NCBI GenBank assembly: GCA_012295275.1
Contig: CM022671.1
Location: 8,370,001 to 8,434,000 of the forward strand
Direction: 5' to 3'
DNA from: Chrysomallon squamiferum
Lineage: Eukaryota; Animalia; Mollusca
DNA length: 64,000 nt
Shown here: positions 6,694 through 29,775 of the stretch, piece by piece
How the letters are laid out: every line of letters starts with the position of its first letter
Position numbering within the stretch: the stretch's first letter is position 1
Notes under the pieces: generated by a model
Seen by the model: only the letters and a program-made list of their open reading frames with translations
Database searches by the model: none
What the model was told of the DNA's origin: nothing
Position numbers and translations under genes: made by a program

Positions 6694-8455
6694 AATAATT
6701 AAAAATTAATTAATTAATATTATTCATAATAGTAGATGTAATAATATAAATAATAATTATAATAAATATAAAAATTAATTAACAATTAATTAACTAAACG
6801 CAAGAATGAAAGCTGAGTTTTATTTAATGATGGGTTTTTGTTTTTGTTGTTGTTTTCCACTCTGCGATCAAATGGCGACATATGCTTGATTATGCACCAT
6901 ATATTTATATAAATGATAAAGGCAGCCTTGAAATAAATAACTTATTGGGCACTGTCTGGCACGGGAAACAGGCCAATGGACGTTTAACCATGTGTAACTT
7001 TAAAATAATACAAATTATTTTATTTTACATTTATCTGTATTTCTCGACATTATATTTTCGCCCGGCTAGTTTGATTTAATTTCAAATACTTCATAACCCC
7101 CAAACAACGCAAAAGCTATAGTTTAAATCTGTTACATTTCTTTAAACCAAAATTACGTAATATGTTAGTTATCTGACATAATTATAATGTATTCAGAAAT
7201 GATAATTTCTGTTACGTAAAACAAAAAAATAGGTTTGTAAGGAATCAACAGCAATTAGATAAATAACGTCTTCATTACATTTTATTGCTGTTAGTATAAC
7301 ACAGGTCTTATGTCGTCATATATTTCAGGCTCATTGAATACCTTAGTTATTATATAATACGGACGATGCATCACGTAATAACCTTCATTTGTTATTGGAC
7401 AGTGTGTTATGATGAAATCGTTTATTTCTAATATCAGTTGCTCTGCCGTTCTAATCTCTGTAACAGCGAATAAAATGTGTATACGACATGCAGCTGCTTA
7501 TTATAAATAATATCTATTTTAAGAGAAATCAGAAACGGGATTTTTAACAGACAGCACGGTATTTTACCAAACGCTTCAAGAGCTACAGTTTACAGTGTAG
7601 GTTTCTACATACCTCTAGACTGGCTCCTCTCTAAGATAATGAAGAAAACGAAACACAGATGGTAAAATCTATTCATCTGCGGTCATGTGGAAGTGCGTCT
7701 CAAAAATAAAGCATACTGTTTAGCTAGCAAAGAAATCCAAGAGAGAACTATCTTGAAAACAGGTTCTTCTTTTGTTATTCTCACTGCTCTAACTCTTGAC
7801 TGTCAATTAAACACTGCGTTTCAGTCCTCATTGATCTCTTTATGGCCGCCATGTTAGATCGTCTTGAAACCTCGGCGTTGCTGCTTCTATCGCTATTGAT
7901 CGGTTTTTGCAATTGGCCCGGTGTAGGTTCGTCTTTCGGTACTGGTAAATAATTGGAGGACGGCAATAAGCAGGCTGTTTTTCCAAATCGCCTGACTGTG
8001 CACGCGCAAATTTGTTATTTCTGTTTCTAATAAAACATGGCGCAGTCGCACTGTTAGCGGCTGTAAACGTTGGTGTTCAGATCTGTCAATACAATACTAA
8101 ATTAGTTTCTGTTCACTGTAATAACATGTGTGAAAAAACAAATTGCTTTTTTTTTCCCCCTTTTTTTTTACTTCTTTTTCATTAATGTTTGTTATTAAAA
8201 CGACTATTATCCATATTTCATCAGATTATTGACTTTATTTATTGTTTATCTGTTAGCGCACGTTTGAAATGAATACTTTTTATCTTTCGCGATCTTACTA
8301 ATTAGAAAAGTCACATACAGCTTGTTATAATTTTGTTTCAGCATTAGTATTAGTATAATTATAAGTGACAACAGTACCTGTATGCTTGTTATTAATATTG
8401 GTACAACTATTATCAGGCTATATGAATTAGAAATCACTTAACATCATAATTATCT

Positions 8456-10178
8456 GGGCAATTCCACGTTGACGCACGCTATATTCAGAGCAGTTGGAGA
8501 TCATTCTAACAGCCATGTTTGCTACAGTCGTACTCACAGAAACATGGCCCTCAGTAACAGACCTGCACAGATGTCCACATCGATTTGGTGTCATAGAGAA
8601 AAGAGCCCAGGGATGCACATTGCTCGACAGGTAACGAGAAATATGAGCGTGACGGATGTTACATCAAAAGGACATGAGTGAAAAGCAACTAACTTCATTT
8701 CAAAAATGTCTGAAATCTATAAATTGTAAAAATAAATATTTCCTTTGCAGTGAAGGTGTCAGGCCAAATAATACTATCAGTTTTAATTCAGTTTGAAAAC
8801 AACGTACAAGAAAAATATTATTTCATAACTGTGTGTGACGGACATTACCTTCTTGTCCGCTAATGTAACACCACTTTTTCTGTCCGTACTAAGCAGTGCT
8901 TGTTTGACTGCTGTCAAGATAAAAATCATTTCAATGCTTGACAGTTTTATATCAAAAGCATGATTAATCACAGTGGGGGAAACTTTTCATTAGACTTTAT
9001 CATTCGTCAGAATGAAGGGGTCGCGGCATGATGAGATGGTGGAACCGAGGGATTCCTCTGATGGCTGGGACATCAACAAACACCTCTTTCAATTTGAGAG
9101 TCTCATTTCGTTTTTCTAAATCGGAGGTATGCATTTCAAATACACCTACCTGTGGCATGATCCATCAACAAAGTAAGATTCCTGCTTCACCATTATTCTT
9201 TTATTTTTTCCACTGCGTTCCACACACACCATTTTATAATGCCATCTATACCATCAACAGGTCCCTTGCCATGAGGAGTGGCAAAGAAATTCAGGTGAAT
9301 ATTTTTCTTATTCTTTTCCGTAGCGAAATCATAGAAGCTGCTATGAAGCGGTTTTTGAATTGTGACATCAGACCATATATATACAGTTTTCACTCAACTG
9401 GAGATCATTTCCAAGAGCATGTAATGGCATGCAGTGACAATACCTTTCGAACGTGCAAGATTATCGCAGTTGCTATCACAGTTGAGTGACATGGATACTT
9501 TAAAAATAGCAATTTGTATCTCATCCTGGTACCTACACGTATAATAAATTGTGGCAAAAAGGAGGAAATATTTTCATTTGAATCATTTGCTTTGCTTCCC
9601 AGTCTGCCATCTTCTTTCTTCTATAAATCTTCCTTACTCTTCTACCTACATATGCTTTTTGTCTGTCATTATTCTAACATAACATCTATGATTACTTTGT
9701 AACACTGTCTTTTTCTTGGGTTGGATGTAATAATTTTTCAGAACAGAAGGGAAAACTGAATGTATACCTTTATTTGTTTTGATGATGTTGCCTGATGAAA
9801 TTAGAGTGCATTTTTCTTTAAAAAAAAAAAAAAAAAAATGAAGTATTGTGGGTGAAAATATCAATAGGCTGCAGATGATATCACTGGTATTTCGTGAACC
9901 TACGTTTTGTTAAAAAATGCTGCAGCTGTTAAAGCTTTTCTTGATTTATATGAATGTGATGGTTGTTAATGCATTTACTTTTACTGTGACGGATGTTACA
10001 GTTTTCTTTTCTCTCTCAAATACAGATAACACAGTTTTGAAGACTGGCTGATATATTTTCATTGTCAAAAACAATTTTCATTATTTTATCATTAAGTTGG
10101 AAGTTTTGTGACTCATTGCATAATGAAATATGAAATAATTTGTTTTCGCCTTTTGTCCCTTGAGCCACGGAACTGCCC
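8456..10178 (-). mobile_element. Degenerate Sola2-like DNA transposon
   Basis: 4-bp TSD ATCT (8452-8455, 10179-10182). Termini GGGCAATTCC / reverse complement GGGCAGTTCC. Minus-strand remnant 9193-9393 reads IWSD...LNFFATPHGKGPVDGIDGIIK, a DDD transposase motif I associate with Sola2. Internal direct repeat GTGACGGATGTTACA near 8649 and 9986. Confidence 0.75.
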
Positions 10179-12986: not shown

Positions 12987-13023
12987 ATGGCCAAGTCCAA
13001 AAATCACACCAATCACAATCAGA
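12987..13023 (+). CDS. RPL29: 60S ribosomal protein L29 (eL29), first coding exon (exon starts 12958)
   Basis: Acceptor ttttcAG ends 12957; GCCATGG Kozak; encodes MAKSKNHTNHNQ plus 1 nt; donor GTAAGT at 13024. MAKSKNHTxHNQ is the eL29 N-terminal signature. Confidence 0.97.
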
Positions 13024-13038
13024 GTAAGTATGACTTCA

Positions 13039-14292
13039 GGTGTCATCCCATTTGGTTGAATTCTCAGTTGGTCGAAATACCCGATTACCTGTGTATGTAA
13101 GGAACATGGCCTCTTCAGAGTTTTTCATAGTTCCTCCATGGCCTTTTGTGACTAAAACTCTGGTTATACAAAGATGCATTAAAGACAGATAATGGTTTAT
13201 TTACCAATATATGTTCTGTGAGAATGGCTGGTTTACACAAGGTAGAATTTGTGGATTAAAACTGTGGAAAACAACAAGTTTTGTTAGATGGTTTGTATGT
13301 ACAGTCAAAATCACGTTAACAAAGAAGCACCAAATGACTGTGTCAGCAAGATCACCATAGTTGCTGGTTTTATTAGAAACAACTTTAGACATGACCATCC
13401 TCCGAATAATGAAACTACAGCCACCTTCAATAGCACTATGAGAGATAGAGGACAGTCCAAAACGACATCTATGCAACAGATCTTCAACTCAGAGCTGATG
13501 AAGGAAGATGACCAAGACATCCCTGAAATACCCACTTTCCCTGTCTCATGAGTACTGTGTACCGATAGTGATGAACTGTGATTCCTACTCTCCCAGAGAC
13601 ACTCCAAGACATCAATCTGCCAGGAGACTGTGATCACAGAAAACCTGGGTGAGAAGAGCTGCCTGTCCTGTCCATCACTACTACTAATGAACGAGGTCCA
13701 GAACGCGTTACTAGATGCACTGAGAATGACCCCAGCAGTACTCAGAACTGTTCAAATCAGTGATTACATGGTGACAACATGGATGGACAGTGACACAAGA
13801 TTTCCTCTTCACATGTGGAATCACTTCGTCAAAGCTGGCTGAAGAATGAACAACAATCTGGAATTCGCTATTCAACAGGCTGCATTCTCATCAACATCCA
13901 GATACACACAGATTTGAGAACTTGATCATCAAGGGGATAGAGAAAGGTGAAAGAGCAAAGTTTGTGTAGTTAATTGCTGGAGCTGCACCACCCACTGAGG
14001 AAGATAGTCTCAACAACAGTCATTTGTCTCAAGCTGAAAAATACCTCTGCAGGACCTGTACCCCACTCTACTTTTTGTGAAATAAACATTTTTAGATGGA
14101 GACATTCTTTGCTTATTTACAGACATTCATGGATTATTTTGATATACATGTGCAGTAATAATCAGTTGCCAAATGTGGAACAGTTAATTGTAATGACTGA
14201 GAATACAACATGCATGTCAATAAGACCACTGAACCATATTTATTGTTTCACCAGTTTGACCAATTGGGAATTCGACCAAATGGGAGTAAGCC
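13039..14292 (+). mobile_element. Degenerate Mutator-like (MULE) DNA transposon in RPL29 intron 2
   Basis: 9-bp TSD ATGACTTCA at 13030-13038 and 14293-14301; GG...CC termini. Imperfect TIRs: left TCCCATTTGGTTGAATTCTCAGTTGGTC vs right reverse complement TCCCATTTGGTCGAATTCCCAATTGGTC. Broken transposase pieces: HDHPP (FLYWCH-like tail), EIPTFP..MSTVYR***TVIPTLPETL, and DYMVTTWMDSDTRFPLHMWNHF..RMNNNLE. Confidence 0.85.
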
Positions 14293-14627
14293 ATGACTTC
14301 AGTATCATAAATTTATGGTACTTAATATAACGGTTAATGGTATAACTAAATGTTAAAATGTGTAATGGAATTCTTCAGCAAGAGGCTACAATTTAAAAAA
14401 TTCTTTAAGTCTTGTAAGTCTTGATGACTTTAACAGCTGAAAAAGTCTTTGCAGATGGATTTTTTATAATAATGCAAAATAACTTTCTTTTTAAAAAATA
14501 AATTAAAAAAAAAGAATTTCTATACATCTGTATATAACTCTATGTAGGGCAGCCTAAACTATAAATTAATGTAATATTTATATGTTTTTTTAATGTCAAT
14601 TTTTAATTTATATTTTTTAAATATTAG

Positions 14628-22588: not shown

Positions 22589-22768
<180 letters not shown>

Positions 22769-23045: not shown

Positions 23046-24705
23046 TCATAATAATTACACTAATAATAATAATGAAATATCTAAATATTTTTACTAATAA
23101 TTATAATTTTTTTTTAATGTATTTTACTATTAGCCAAGCTTCAGTTATGCTAAACATTTTAAATACACGTATAATAACTAAATAAACATAAAATATTATT
23201 AAAACTACAGAAAAACCATGCTTAAAAGGTCTGAATAAATTTGACTGAAATGAAAAAACTAATTATTACTGGAAATATATATTAGAAGAAGGTTCTTTTC
23301 ACTATTATATTAACTAAACTTTTACTACTGTTACTACTATTAGTTTTTTATTTTATGTATTTCTTTACTTTACTGGGATTGGGAAACAACTCTGTAATGC
23401 ACCACATTATTACAGAATTATTTCCCTTTCAAAAACATTGTTACAATAGTGTATTAACATTGTTTTGATATAATCATATTTATTATTGATTAAAAGTATA
23501 TTATATATTTTTTATAAATGTAACAATTTTCTGCCATTTTAATGCTACAATAAAAAACACACATATATATATATATAACATAAGCAAATATAAATACAAG
23601 TCTGTTTTAAATGAAGCTTGTGAAAGCAAGAGAAGTTAAATGATATAAAAAGCCAATCAGCATAAAATATAGGATTAAATAAATTAATTTAATTATATAA
23701 AAGCAATATAGAAATTGTTGAACTAGAAAAGCAATTTGAAATATAATAAGCATTTAATGATTAGAGTGCAGAGTAATCATTTTATTAAAAAAAAGCATCT
23801 GATAAATGAATTAAACTATATTTTATATAAAACTGAAGAAATTTTAAATTAAACAATCCTAATGAAATTATTCTCCATCTTATAAAAACACCAATCAAGA
23901 ACTGAAATGATAGAAACAAATTATTTTATTTTAATATGTTTATTTAGGTGGGTTTTTTTTTCAGGTTTTAAAAATAAAAGAAAAATTTATTGAGTTAACA
24001 TCATGCTTCTTTTTATGCCATATATTAACTGTAATTTTTTTTAAGGATTATATAAATAATGTTGATAATTTTTATTTATTTATCTTTGTTGACTTCAGTG
24101 GTTTTTAAATACTACACACTAACAATCCTAATGGATAATTTTTACATTTGGTCAAAACAGATGTTTAACAACTTGCTGACTTAATTCAATTCAAGTATGA
24201 AATAAAAATGTATGCCATAAATAAGTATACAAATAAAAACCCTAGAAATATTTGTAAGAAAATAAAAATAAAATATTTGAGACATGAATAACAACAAAAA
24301 AGTAATCAAAGCTCTATTATTTGCACAGAGTACCTATTTTGAAATCAATAATAATAAAAAAAAGTTAATTTGTGAATAATAAAAAGCAAGCCGATGCATT
24401 AATTTACATATTAACAAAATATTTAATGCAGTCCATTTATCCAGCACTCCTCTAAACTTTAACCTAAGGAACATAAAACATAAACCAATGAAAAGCAAAC
24501 TTAACCAAAATGCCCATGCCAAAAAGGAAATGCGAACACTAACAAATAAATTAAAAAATTAAAAAAATTAAAAACAGGAAAAAAAAAGAAAAAAGCCAGT
24601 AAAAGAAAAAGAAAAAAAAATTCACTAAAATAAAAAGTTAAAAACCCAAAAGAGTTCTTGTCAAGGGACTCAACTCCAATCATGCAAGAAGGTCAGGGGC
24701 ACTAC

Positions 24706-24796
24706 CTCGTATTCTGCTGTCTTTGCCTTGCACCAGTCGAGAAGTATTTGCTTAATGGCACTAGGGCTGCGAGCCATGCCCTTACCTCCTCCAATA
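24706..24796 (-). CDS. SMTN: Smoothelin-like mutually exclusive exon C (CH helix A variant)
   Basis: ttaAG acceptor, GAG|GTAGT donor; 91 nt, phase 2 to 0; IGGGKGMARSPSAIKQILLDWCKAKTAEYE. Confidence 0.88.
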
Positions 24797-24970
24797 CTTA
24801 ATAGATGAAAAAAGAAACAGGAGCAATGTTTAATAAGGAATGGTAAAATAAATAAAAATAAAATAGAGGTGGAAAAAAAAAAAATAAAAGAAAACATTGA
24901 TTCAGCCAACATGTGACATCCACCGACCACCATTTTTGTGTTTTTGTGCTTCTGCATTTTTGTTTAATAA

Positions 24971-25007
<37 letters not shown>

Positions 25008-25484
25008 AAAAAAAAAAAAAAAAAATAAAAAAAAAAAAAAATAAATAAAAAAATAATAAATAAATAAATAAAATATTAATATCATTATAAAAAAATAAAA
25101 ATAAATTAAAATATATTTTACAAATGTACAGATTACAGTAAGTCAACTGTGTCATTACTAACTGTACATGCAGTAGTATCAGAGTGCTAACTCAGTTTTA
25201 ATCAATTGTATAAAAACACTGAGCTTGTTAGTGAAGTGATAAATGCATGATTGTCCAGTACCTGAAAAAAATGCTGTGTATAATTTACATTAGTGAGTTG
25301 AATATTCAGACAATTAACCATAATACCAGGTGTTAAAAACATTAACGGTGTGGAATATAATATGAAAAGATGCACCGAACACCACATATCGGGTTTCTTG
25401 TGGACAAAAGGGTAATGTAAAAAATATCTTGGTAAGTACTGCCATGACAGTACATACTGTGGGCGTCATGCTGTTTGTTAATAC

Positions 25485-25569
25485 CTCATATTCTTTGGTC
25501 ATGGCTTTTACCCAGTTTAACAAGGCTTCTTTAACAGAACTAGGGTTTCTTGCAATTCCTCCTCCCATT
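25485..25569 (-). CDS. SMTN: Smoothelin-like mutually exclusive exon B (CH helix A variant)
   Basis: tttaAG acceptor, GAG|GTATT donor; 85 nt, phase 2 to 0; MGGGIARNPSSVKEALLNWVKAMTKEYE. Confidence 0.88.
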
Positions 25570-26954
25570 CTTAAACGTGGGGTGAAAAAAAAAAAAAAAA
25601 AAAACAATGATATATTTGTTTTTAATTATTTTCAAAAAATTATGAAAAAGAGTGTGCTGTTAAAAAAAAAAAAAAATCCAGACATACTGAGATATCAGGA
25701 TTTAAAAAAAAAAAAAATTATATCTGGCCCTTCCATCAAATATAATTATTTGATTATAATGAAAAATGAAATAGCTATTGAAAAAAAAAATTCCAATCAG
25801 ACTATATAGTATCACCCCCACTTTTTTTTTTTAATTTTTTTTTTTATTTATTTATTTTTTTAATTGTTTTTTTTTCCATAAAGTAAAATAATTATTGTTT
25901 TCTGCATTAATTACTTGAGTTATTTATATAATACCCATCATGTGATTTATGAGACTAATTTTCACTGGTTCTGAAAGAAAAACAGTCTAGTTATTTGTGA
26001 TTTATATACAAAATGTGAAAACATTAAACTGAAAATCTCTCTGAATACAAATGTATCAAAGGAATTAACTTTCAGTTACCTGAAAATAAATATGCTAAAT
26101 TTTTAAATCATACAACACAGTGATATAATTTTAAACAATTAGATAATAAAAACATAATAAAAATATAAGGATAATAAATTAGAAAAAAAAAAAAAATTAA
26201 AATCTTTAAAATTTTAAAAAGCAAAAAACAACAGAACAAAACAAACAAAAACAAAAAACTAAAATAAGAAGTTTTATCATGTCTTTCCTAAAATCTTCCA
26301 TTTAACATTTATTAATAATTTATTTAATCTGATACCTTAACAAAACAAAAACTTCTCTCCCTATTTTAATACTGAAATAATAACATTAACATTAGTATAT
26401 AAATATTTTATAATTATTATTTAGTTAATTTTAAATACCAATAATTGTTGTTTTTTTATATATATATTATTTTATTTTATTTTATTTTTTTACTTTATTT
26501 TATTTTTTTATTTTATACTCTGCTCCTTGAATTTCATTTATTATTACTGAAATAACAATATTTACATAAATATTTTATTATTTTGTTAATTTGATATACA
26601 GCAATGTATAGCAAACCTCCACACACAAGTGTATATATGTGTGTGTGTAACTGAAATAACTTTATCAGCACATTATATATAGATATTTTCTTAATTATTT
26701 TGTTAGTTTGATATACTTTTCAACTACAGAATATTTTATATATATAAAACACTGATATATAAAAAGATTAGCACACCTATATAAGTGTTTAACTTATGAT
26801 TTAGTTTGGTATACAGGTATATACATTGTTGTTAAAAGAAAAGACAGTGGTGCACATTTCTATCGACAGATGCTAGTTTTACTACAGCTAGTTGTAACTA
26901 TCTAGCTGAAAAGTGTAACAGCCGCAGTTCTGTGATGTCAGAGATAGCACAGAA

Positions 26955-27196
26955 ATAATAATAATAATAACAATAATATTAATAATAATAATAATAAAAT
27001 AGTAATAATAAAATAATAATAATAAAAATAATAATAATAATAAAATAAAATAAAATAATAATAATAATAATAATAATAAAAATAAAAATAAATAATAATA
27101 ATAATAATAATAAAAATAATAATAATAATAATAAATAATAATAATAATAATAAAAATAATAATAATAATAAATAAAAATAATAAAAAAATAATAAA

Positions 27197-27239
<43 letters not shown>

Positions 27240-27250
27240 ATAACAATAAC

Positions 27251-27294
<44 letters not shown>

Positions 27295-27312
27295 TAATAA
27301 TAAATAAAATAA
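26955..27312. repeat. Long degenerate (TAA)n/(TAAA)n tract just downstream (transcript sense) of exon A
   Basis: Directly visible; source of the spurious I/L/Y-rich ORFs. Confidence 0.95.
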
Positions 27313-27337
27313 TCTCTTGACATGTGGCCAGAAGTAC

Positions 27338-27452
27338 CTCGTATTCCTCTGTGTTCAATTTACAAAACTCTAAAATATCCTTTTTTTTACTCTCAGCATG
27401 TCTAGACATTCTGGTGACTGCATCCTTAGCCAGAGTTACAGTAACTAATGCA
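27338..27452 (-). CDS. SMTN: Smoothelin-like mutually exclusive exon A (divergent CH helix A variant)
   Basis: cccacAG acceptor, GAG|GTACT donor; 115 nt, phase 2 to 0; ALVTVTLAKDAVTRMSRHAESKKKDILEFCKLNTEEYE. Confidence 0.82.
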
Positions 27453-27715
27453 CTGTGGGTAATAAAATGAATCAATGTCATGCAGAGATAAAATAAACTG
27501 ATAATTTTATTTCTCCGTTTTTTGTTATCACATTAAGTGAACTATAATGAAAATAGTGTGTGTTAATAGTGTGTTTGACTGTGTTGTTGTGACTGAAGTA
27601 TGTTCATAGTAATGTTAAAATATTTAAATTAATACTAAATTTAAAATAATAATAATAATAATAAAAGCAACAACAATGACAACAAAAACAATAAACTTAA
27701 GATGGAATAAATAAA

Positions 27716-28313: not shown

Positions 28314-28398
28314 TTTGGTTTGCTGGGTCCACCTGGATTATTAGCACCATCCATCTGTTTAAAAGCAGCCATAGCTCCTTTAGGACCAGCAGGTTTTC
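28314..28398 (-). CDS. SMTN: Smoothelin-like constitutive exon preceding the exon cluster
   Basis: tttcAG ... AA|GTAGG; 85 nt, phase 1 to 2; (G)KPAGPKGAMAAFKQMDGANNPGGPSKP. Confidence 0.85.
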
Positions 28399-29634: not shown

Positions 29635-29775
29635 CTCCCCAAGACTCAGTCTTCTGTGATTTTTGTACATATCCATTATGGCTGTTCCAAGACTCAGTCT
29701 GGACGTTTATTGTACCCGACGTACTGGGACCACTGGCATTAGTAAGCTTGTCAAGTATTTCTACAGCCGTGCTTT
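29635..29775 (-). CDS. SMTN: Smoothelin-like exon
   Basis: ttgttAG ... G|GTAAT; 141 nt, symmetric phase 1; (E)STAVEILDKLTNASGPSTSGTINVQTESWNSHNGYVQKSQKTESWG. Confidence 0.85.

What the first reader, a model, noticed from the sequence alone, without database searches (positions are those of the whole stretch)
24706..27452. Three tandem mutually exclusive exons swap the first helix of a smoothelin CH domain
Seen: between the constitutive exon ending at 28314 (phase 2) and the CH core exon starting at 22741 (phase 0) lie three paralogous exons of 115, 85 and 91 nt. All run phase 2 to 0 and end in EYE|GT: A ...SKKKDILEFCKLNTEEYE, B ...SSVKEALLNWVKAMTKEYE, C ...SAIKQILLDWCKAKTAEYE. Each alone restores a complete CH domain, while zero or two of them shift the frame. 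Known: this is the architecture of mutually exclusive exon clusters (Dscam, arthropod Mhc, tropomyosin), and the LLxWC helix is helix A of type-2 CH domains. Inference: a three-way switch of CH-domain surface and linker giving isoforms with different binding properties, perhaps by muscle type. I do not know of this cassette in vertebrate smoothelins.
Basis: partly seen in the sequence, partly recalled or inferred. Interest (0 to 1): 0.9.

Follow-up and report, generated by a model that had tools for sequence, protein, structure and literature searches.

The report
Ancient swappable helix in snail smoothelin
A snail smoothelin-like gene carries three alternative exons for the first helix of its calponin-homology domain, and only one at a time keeps the protein in frame; gene models of abalone, chiton, oyster and horseshoe crabs alternate between two such exon types, so the switch is likely ancient and likely tunes how the protein binds muscle thin filaments.

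Summary
The gene is a gastropod smoothelin-like gene (CH exon 94% to Gigantopelta). Exon A replaces the hallmark helix-I tryptophan by phenylalanine. The same F-versus-W choice appears in RefSeq models of abalone, chiton, oyster and two horseshoe crabs (28 of 30 models carry exactly one, none carries two). Mollusc and arthropod F exons group together (99/99 on 22 columns; 93/88 with more rows), but separate origins are not rejected (p 0.21, 0.27). The third exon, B, is seen only here and, by likeness, in Gigantopelta. New here: a 17-bp stem pairs the inside of exon A with the intron before B (0 of 400 shuffles as strong), and exon A has drifted just there. Splicing in this species and any tissue link are untested. 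Vertebrate smoothelin swaps helices IV-VI instead.

The parts
28314..28398 (-). Exon U, upstream linker exon (85 nt, ends phase 2)
   Evidence: matches Gigantopelta P0001 by tblastn
27338..27452 (-). Alternative exon A, F-type: long basic linker plus CH helix I with Phe at the conserved Trp position (115 nt)
   Evidence: counterparts in chiton, abalone, oyster, sea slugs, pond snail, whelk; keeps 16 of 24 consensus columns against 19-24 in 18 other mollusc-type A exons
25485..25569 (-). Alternative exon B, W-type helix I (85 nt)
   Evidence: 19 of 28 residues identical, same length, to the exon in the Gigantopelta RefSeq model (C: 15 of 28)
24706..24796 (-). Alternative exon C, W-type helix I (91 nt)
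   Evidence: 87% identical over 23 columns to the abalone W exon
22590..22741 (-). Exon D, CH core, helices II-IV (152 nt)
   Evidence: Pfam CH E 2.7e-11; best solved relatives SMTN 2d87 and SMTNL1 2jv9; same 152 nt as the vertebrate exon (PMC10643981)
21613..21760 (-). Exon E, coding part of the last exon, end of the CH domain and stop
   Evidence: 98% to Gigantopelta P0001 799-846, single tblastn hit on the gene's strand
27391..27407 (-). Exonic arm of a predicted 17-bp RNA stem, inside exon A
25676..25692 (-). Intronic arm of the predicted stem, 107-123 nt before the acceptor of B; also folds as a small hairpin alone (-8.7 kcal/mol)
   Evidence: -26.3 kcal/mol; 0 of 400 shuffles of exon A as strong; strongest match of any of 6 exons against both strands of the window
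27479..27484 (-). UGCAUG motif just before the acceptor of A (RBFOX-type motif, name recalled; lead only)
24681..24686 (-). UGCAUG motif just after the donor of C (lead only)
25467..25471 (-). GCAUG motif just after the donor of B (lead only)

Best explanation
Three tandem paralogous exons each encode the linker and first helix of the C-terminal type-2 CH domain of a gastropod smoothelin-like protein, and they are most likely spliced one at a time, giving CH domains with either Phe (A) or Trp (B, C) at the core position of helix I that likely differ in tropomyosin/calmodulin-side binding. Shown: exon anatomy and frame logic; A-type and W-type exons used alternately in gene models of other molluscs and of horseshoe crabs; F-type helix I is predicted to fold into a normal CH domain. 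Inferred: the A/W pair arose once in the protostome ancestor (about 0.6) and was lost in several lines; B is a second W-type copy of narrow distribution (about 0.7); exclusivity is enforced by tissue-biased splicing factors (UGCAUG before A, after B and C; about 0.35), by decay of frameshifted messages (about 0.7), and in this lineage by a stem that masks exon A and brings B's acceptor forward (about 0.45); the isoforms are sorted by muscle or cell type and tune thin-filament binding through the linker next to the CH domain (about 0.5).
For: Anatomy. Isoforms (tally; NCBI names): Haliotis rubra 3 F and 2 W of 5; Liolophura 1 F and 4 W of 5; Ostrea edulis 8 F and 3 W of 11; Tachypleus LOC143253909 3 F, 2 W, 2 neither of 7; Limulus 1 F and 1 W of 2; none of the 30 holds both. 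Order A then W in genomes: merged GenBank models of Nucella, Pinctada and Elysia and an unnamed chance ORF P0297 that reads through both. A profile of A exons alone found 22 proteins among 1.84 billion, 21 of them F-type helix-I stretches, most ending EYE then V like an exon read into its donor. Tree without the F/W column: 13 mollusc and arthropod F exons form one group, 99/99; mean identity mollusc F to arthropod F 0.51, to chelicerate W 0.37; arthropod F to mollusc W 0.36. F aligns to W of SMTN and SMTNL1 helix I, which a review calls one of the two most conserved CH residues (PMC7240100, passages). AlphaFold2 models of two F-type proteins of other species show the helix at pLDDT about 84-94 with a disordered linker; the Limulus model matches 2d87 and 2jv9 best. 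SMTNL1 needs the disordered region before the CH domain for tropomyosin and Ca-calmodulin binding (PMC5359911, passages). A smoothelin-like protein is enriched in scallop catch muscle (PMC5963113, passages). Stem.
Against: No junction reads from this organism; no protein of this organism was found. RefSeq models are predictions, whose read support I could not see. Three GenBank models carry A and part of W in tandem through shifted splice sites: probably merged predictions, but co-inclusion is not excluded. Exon A here has lost 8 of 24 consensus residues, among them the nearly invariant Ile before helix I, and has a long branch (0.84-1.05). AU tests do not reject separate duplications (p 0.143 with the F/W column, 0.209 and 0.267 without); with 10 more unnamed rows support falls to 93/88 and a long W row (Artemia) enters the group. 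No F exon in 18 of 18 Octopus sinensis isoforms seen, in 4 of 4 Drosophila proteins, or in 80 of 80 metagenome loci, of which only 13 have 4.7 kb or more before D (12 with one W exon, 1 with none). B and Gigantopelta do not form a supported pair in the trees. The stem is seen in one genome only. No binding or tissue data.
Confidence: 0.8

Rival explanations
1. The switch is working but two-way in this species: B has taken over and exon A is under relaxed selection, little used or decaying, with the exon-intron stem helping to silence it.
For: A keeps 16 of 24 consensus columns against 19-24 in 18 others; mean identity 0.52 against 0.70 among the others. The stem's intronic arm matches the derived codons of A. 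The only Gigantopelta model seen uses the B-like exon.
Against: A is open, has its ancestral length of 38 codons and both splice sites, and keeps K, I-L, F-C, N-T, E-Y of the helix; the losses cluster in codons 12-25.
Confidence: 0.2
2. The F/W switch arose twice, once in molluscs and once in arthropods, by separate duplications of the same helix-I exon with convergent W-to-F change.
For: The helix-I exon boundary is ancient and shared (PMC10643981), so duplication is easy to repeat; AU p 0.209 and 0.267; the linkers of mollusc and arthropod F exons differ in length and sequence; patchy distribution; PMC9741552 has a section headed for convergent origins of such events (heading and passages seen).
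Against: The F group survives removal of the F/W column (99/99); shared N-A, I-L and N-T positions beyond F; unnamed F exons of further kinds fall in the same group.
Confidence: 0.35
3. The stem inside exon A is not a splicing element but a chance inverted copy, or a substrate for A-to-I editing at the UAG that holds the first base of a conserved Arg codon (Arg to Gly).
For: One genome only; real introns hold inverted repeats that shuffles lack (a local 18-bp hairpin at -23.6 in the C-D intron). The stem holds a UAG in a duplex of exon and downstream intron; the editing preference is recalled.
Against: Strongest pairing of 6 exons against 128 kb of real sequence, lying in the adjacent intron on the transcribed strand; both inner departures from Watson-Crick pairing are G-U on that strand. 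17 bp is short for editing (recalled).
Confidence: 0.45
4. The three exons are an assembly artefact or dead copies.
For: No reads could be laid.
Against: Exons are only 50-61% identical in DNA, all intact, and match distinct exon types in other species.
Confidence: 0.02

Closest known systems
Vertebrate SMTN exon 20/21 switch (PMC10643981; first half of the text read)
   Same: Same family, same 152-nt constant exon for helices II-IV, tissue-regulated swap of part of the one CH domain by homologous exons.
   Different: Vertebrates swap helices IV-VI through alternative last exons and keep one helix-I exon (115-118 nt); here helix I and its linker are swapped by internal exons and only one last exon was found.
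Tandem duplicated exon substitution events, such as ACTN1/ACTN4 EF-hand exons and the protostome-wide Ca-alpha1T pair (PMC9741552, passages)
   Same: Homologous exons used one at a time, old, enriched in muscle genes; one listed case spans arthropods, nematodes and molluscs.
   Different: Different gene and domain; the main text has 0 occurrences of smoothelin, SMTN or calponin (supplements not read). Here a core Trp is toggled and there is a third exon.
Dscam1-type docking site and selector pairing (PMC6071210, abstract; search listing)
   Same: Long-range RNA pairing within a cluster of paralogous exons.
   Different: Only one stem exceeds chance, and it pairs exon with intron; no set of selectors competing for one docking site was shown.
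Arthropod myosin heavy chain and tropomyosin exon clusters (recalled, not read)
   Same: Muscle genes with small clusters of exclusive exons.
   Different: There the link to muscle type and function is established; here it is untested.

Membership tests
Tandem duplicated mutually exclusive exons | Homologous exons in tandem between the same two flanking exons, with canonical splice sites and equal phases | tested here: met
Tandem duplicated mutually exclusive exons | One and only one exon keeps the frame | tested here: met
Tandem duplicated mutually exclusive exons | Transcripts of this species carry each exon, one at a time | not tested
   RNA runs exist but none was laid on the stretch; no protein of this organism found
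Tandem duplicated mutually exclusive exons | Alternate use in related species | tested here: met
   28 of 30 RefSeq models of five species carry exactly one, 2 none, 0 both; 3 GenBank models carry both in tandem. Met for A versus W, not for B versus C
Smoothelin family | Single C-terminal type-2 CH domain with the 152-nt helix II-IV exon | tested here: met
Smoothelin family | Upstream smoothelin domain (PF12510) | tested here: inconclusive
   Precomputed for the Gigantopelta orthologue, whose exons map along the window at 73-87% in that part; the window's own exons for it were not scanned
Vertebrate SMTN E20/E21 switch | Two alternative last exons for helices IV-VI | tested here: not met
   One tblastn hit for the last exon, with 21 kb of window downstream
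Dscam-type docking site and selectors | Several selectors competing for one docking site | tested here: inconclusive
   One element (25392-25376) has two partners at -17.4 and -13.5 kcal/mol, within the range of shuffles (best -14.9 to -20.2)
Dscam-type docking site and selectors | Conserved or compensatory base pairs across species | not testable with these tools
   No genome held; no related mollusc locus with these introns among 80 loci
Steric exclusion of adjacent exons | Intron between the exons too short for both splice sites | tested here: not met
   Introns of 1768 and 688 nt; branch points not mapped, so a distant branch point is not excluded

The most novel reading that the evidence does not exclude
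Since the protostome ancestor, smoothelin has toggled the hallmark Trp of CH helix I to Phe, with a different linker, by exclusive exons sorted by muscle type, a mirror image of the vertebrate swap at the other end of the same domain; and this snail lineage is caught remodelling the switch, with a third exon B and a new exon-intron duplex that hides the ancient exon A.
Probability: 0.25. Interest if true: 0.72.

Novelty: new variant of a known kind. Interest (0 to 1): 0.52.

Why it matters
What the lone CH domain of smoothelins does is unsettled (PMC10643981). A natural swap of one helix and its linker, kept in chitons, snails, bivalves and horseshoe crabs, gives matched variants that differ at one of the most conserved CH residues and can be tested directly for tropomyosin, calmodulin and actin binding, and against catch versus striated muscle in oyster or scallop RNA that already exists. 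Vertebrates and these invertebrates would then have diversified the same domain from opposite ends. The exon-intron stem offers a simple minigene test of how a two-exon switch gains a third exon. The isoforms already sit in automatic annotations, so the novelty is in seeing the pattern, not in new sequence.

Tried and rejected
No whole genome is held. RNA runs that hold the stretch were listed (four of one study with shares 0.28-0.32, two small shares that are no evidence), but no reads were laid, so exon use in this species stays open. A search with the window's three exons plus a few intron codons gave 114 candidates and none at E 10. Pfam has no hit on A, B or C alone. 80 metagenome loci held no second helix-I exon and no F-type exon (the output of 52 was cut and I saw only part of it); most are too short to tell. 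The repeat finder returned only A/T-run pairs in its top 25 of 2760. GCAUG after the helix exon was seen in 3 of 17 loci looked at, so no conservation of that motif. Steric exclusion is unlikely from intron length. Alternative first exons were considered (B begins with an ATG) and set aside because all three have good acceptors and homologous models splice them to the upstream exon. The Pinctada F exon dropped out of the trees by a slicing miss. Structure models are of Limulus and Elysia F-type proteins, not of the window's isoforms. No complex was folded: no animal calmodulin or tropomyosin was on hand. Paper searches showed no paper on a helix-I switch in smoothelin; the library lacks most subscription journals, only 15 of 1,156 and only 20 of 33 papers were listed, and supplements of exon catalogues (such as PMC9741552) were not read and may list it. 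Earlier scan notes: none relevant.

Full report
Observation. The region was read on the minus strand and the exons checked by script. U (28398-28314) ends in phase 2; A (27452-27338, 115 nt), B (25569-25485, 85 nt) and C (24796-24706, 91 nt) have AG acceptors and GT donors and end in EYE; D (22741-22590, 152 nt) starts in phase 0; E (from 21760) holds the stop. One of A, B, C restores the frame. Skipping all gives a stop at nt 13 of D; A to B a stop at nt 30 of B; A or B to C a stop at nt 15 of C; all lie well before the last junction, so such messages would be expected to decay (inference from the usual rule). The exons share only 36-44 of their last 72 bases.

The gene. Exon D is a CH domain, closest to human SMTN 2d87 and SMTNL1 2jv9 among solved structures and to smoothelin-like proteins of Gigantopelta aegis (94%) and Haliotis rubra (88%) among 623 hits, of which 120 were listed. 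The Gigantopelta protein maps along the window from about 60000 to 21616, so the window holds most of a long gastropod smoothelin-like gene with Ig domains at the front. The species differs from Gigantopelta (47 of 50 residues in D).

The switch exists elsewhere. Reading the residues before the CH core in RefSeq isoforms shows two types at this position. Type F (like A: long basic linker, I-L-x-F-C) and type W (like B and C). Haliotis rubra has 3 F and 2 W of 5 models, the chiton Liolophura 1 and 4 of 5, Ostrea edulis 8 and 3 of 11, Tachypleus LOC143253909 3 F, 2 W and 2 truncated with neither of 7, Limulus 1 and 1 of 2. None of the 30 has both. F exons were also found in Elysia, Plakobranchus, Aplysia, Lymnaea, Nucella, Pinctada, the sea spider Nymphon and an unnamed arthropod-like protein. 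Three GenBank models (Nucella, Pinctada, Elysia crispata) run A and part of W in tandem, which gives the order A then W as in the window, and is also weak evidence against strict exclusion. A profile of A exons alone retrieved 22 proteins from 1.84 billion; 21 are F-type stretches, one a false hit, and P0297 reads from an A exon through the intron into a W exon. One of the 18 A-type rows tallied (P0295) has W at the F position. Against breadth: 18 of 18 Octopus sinensis isoforms seen and 4 of 4 Drosophila proteins are W, and 80 metagenome loci show no F exon; 13 of them have at least 4.7 kb before D, 12 with one W exon and 1 with none. Clusters at 90% hide isoforms, so absence is weak.

One origin or two. 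On 23 columns of helix I, mollusc F is 51% identical to arthropod F and 37% to chelicerate W; arthropod F is 36% to mollusc W; mollusc W is 51% to chelicerate W. The 13 F rows form one group at 100/94 and at 99/99 after dropping the F/W column itself. AU tests do not reject the mollusc exons as one group (p 0.143, 0.209) nor the chelicerate ones (p 0.267). With 10 more unnamed F rows support is 93/88 with a long W row inside, and the three insect W exons sit next to the F group at 89/91. Few columns; I put one origin at about 0.6. PMC9741552 dates a comparable protostome-wide pair at over 610 million years (passage).

The third exon. C is 87% identical to the abalone W exon. B matches the exon in the single Gigantopelta model in length and in 19 of 28 residues (C: 15 of 28), but the trees do not pair them with support, and in one tree B falls loosely with the oyster, octopus and heterobranch W exons (84/78), so the age of the B/C split is open. 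No other species seen shows two W exons.

What changes in the protein. F aligns with the W of SMTN and SMTNL1 helix I, one of the two most conserved CH residues according to a review (PMC7240100, passages); among stored proteins with the helix next to the core 226 have W, 22 F and 27 were not scored (redundant set). AlphaFold2 models of Limulus X1 and Elysia marginata F-type proteins give a full helix I at pLDDT about 84-94 and a disordered linker, and the first matches 2d87 and 2jv9 best. So the F form is predicted to fold, and the swap changes core packing, the helix surface and 10-20 linker residues. In SMTNL1 the disordered region before the CH domain is needed for tropomyosin binding and holds the Ca-calmodulin site (PMC5359911, passages); a smoothelin-like protein is enriched in scallop catch muscle (PMC5963113, passages). 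Tuning of thin-filament binding by muscle type is therefore the likeliest role, but it is inference.

How the choice may be made. Introns of 1768 and 688 nt argue against steric exclusion. A scan for uninterrupted stems found one beyond chance: 17 bp between the inside of exon A (27407-27391) and the A-B intron (25692-25676), -26.3 kcal/mol, against a best of -20.2 in 12 block shuffles, 0 of 400 shuffles of exon A, and stronger than any match of six exons to both strands of the window. It would hide part of A, loop out its donor and bring B's acceptor forward. It covers codons where this species departs from the mollusc consensus: A keeps 16 of 24 consensus columns against 19-24 in 18 others. 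This suggests a lineage-specific element, and also raises the rival that A is being retired. UGCAUG lies about 30 nt before A and 20 nt after C, GCAUG 14 nt after B, the positions at which RBFOX-type proteins repress and enhance (recalled); this was noticed after the fact and is a lead only. A competing pair around 25392-25376 is within shuffle range.

Comparison and novelty. It works like, and on every feature tested is, a cluster of tandem duplicated exclusive exons; use in this species is untested because no reads were laid. It is not the vertebrate SMTN switch, which swaps helices IV-VI and keeps one helix-I exon (PMC10643981, parts 1 and 2 of 4 read). It is not shown to be a Dscam-type docking system (PMC6071210, abstract). 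Eight paper searches showed no description of a helix-I switch, within an open-access library and without supplements. The isoforms are in automatic annotation already.

Verdict. Real; exclusive splicing 0.8 for the three-exon reading and higher for A versus W; a new variant of a known kind; interest 0.52.

Noticed in passing
window 29635-29775, minus strand: A 141-nt, frame-keeping exon just before U; its counterpart is skipped in some abalone, oyster and chiton models, so the region before the CH domain has a further, independent cassette exon.
   Followed up: partly
L044 11092 and 15538: A chordate-like locus with two alternative last CH exons resembling vertebrate SMTN E20 and E21; lamprey proteins P0106 and P0110 also show both ends. 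The vertebrate switch may be older than vertebrates.
   Followed up: no
P0066, L007, L008 (insect-like helix-I exon): The single insect exon reads N-A-x-Q-I-K like the F exons but has W; insect rows sit next to the F group at 89/91. Insects may have kept the A-derived exon.
   Followed up: partly
P0302, P0304, P0306, P0307, P0309: Unnamed F-type helix-I exons of further kinds; P0309 is a full F-type CH protein closest to mollusc proteins, with a lysine-rich tail like vertebrate E20. They may extend the switch to other groups.
   Followed up: partly
window 23381-23426, minus strand: A local 18-bp hairpin (-23.6 kcal/mol) in the C-D intron; unexplained.
   Followed up: no
P0147, P0148, P0150 (Tachypleus): RefSeq models that end at or just after the switch and lack the CH core: possible CH-less forms or frameshifted products.
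   Followed up: no
window about 8400-9600 and 13000-14300: G+C-richer stretches with long open frames on both strands that look like transposon remains; not examined.
   Followed up: no
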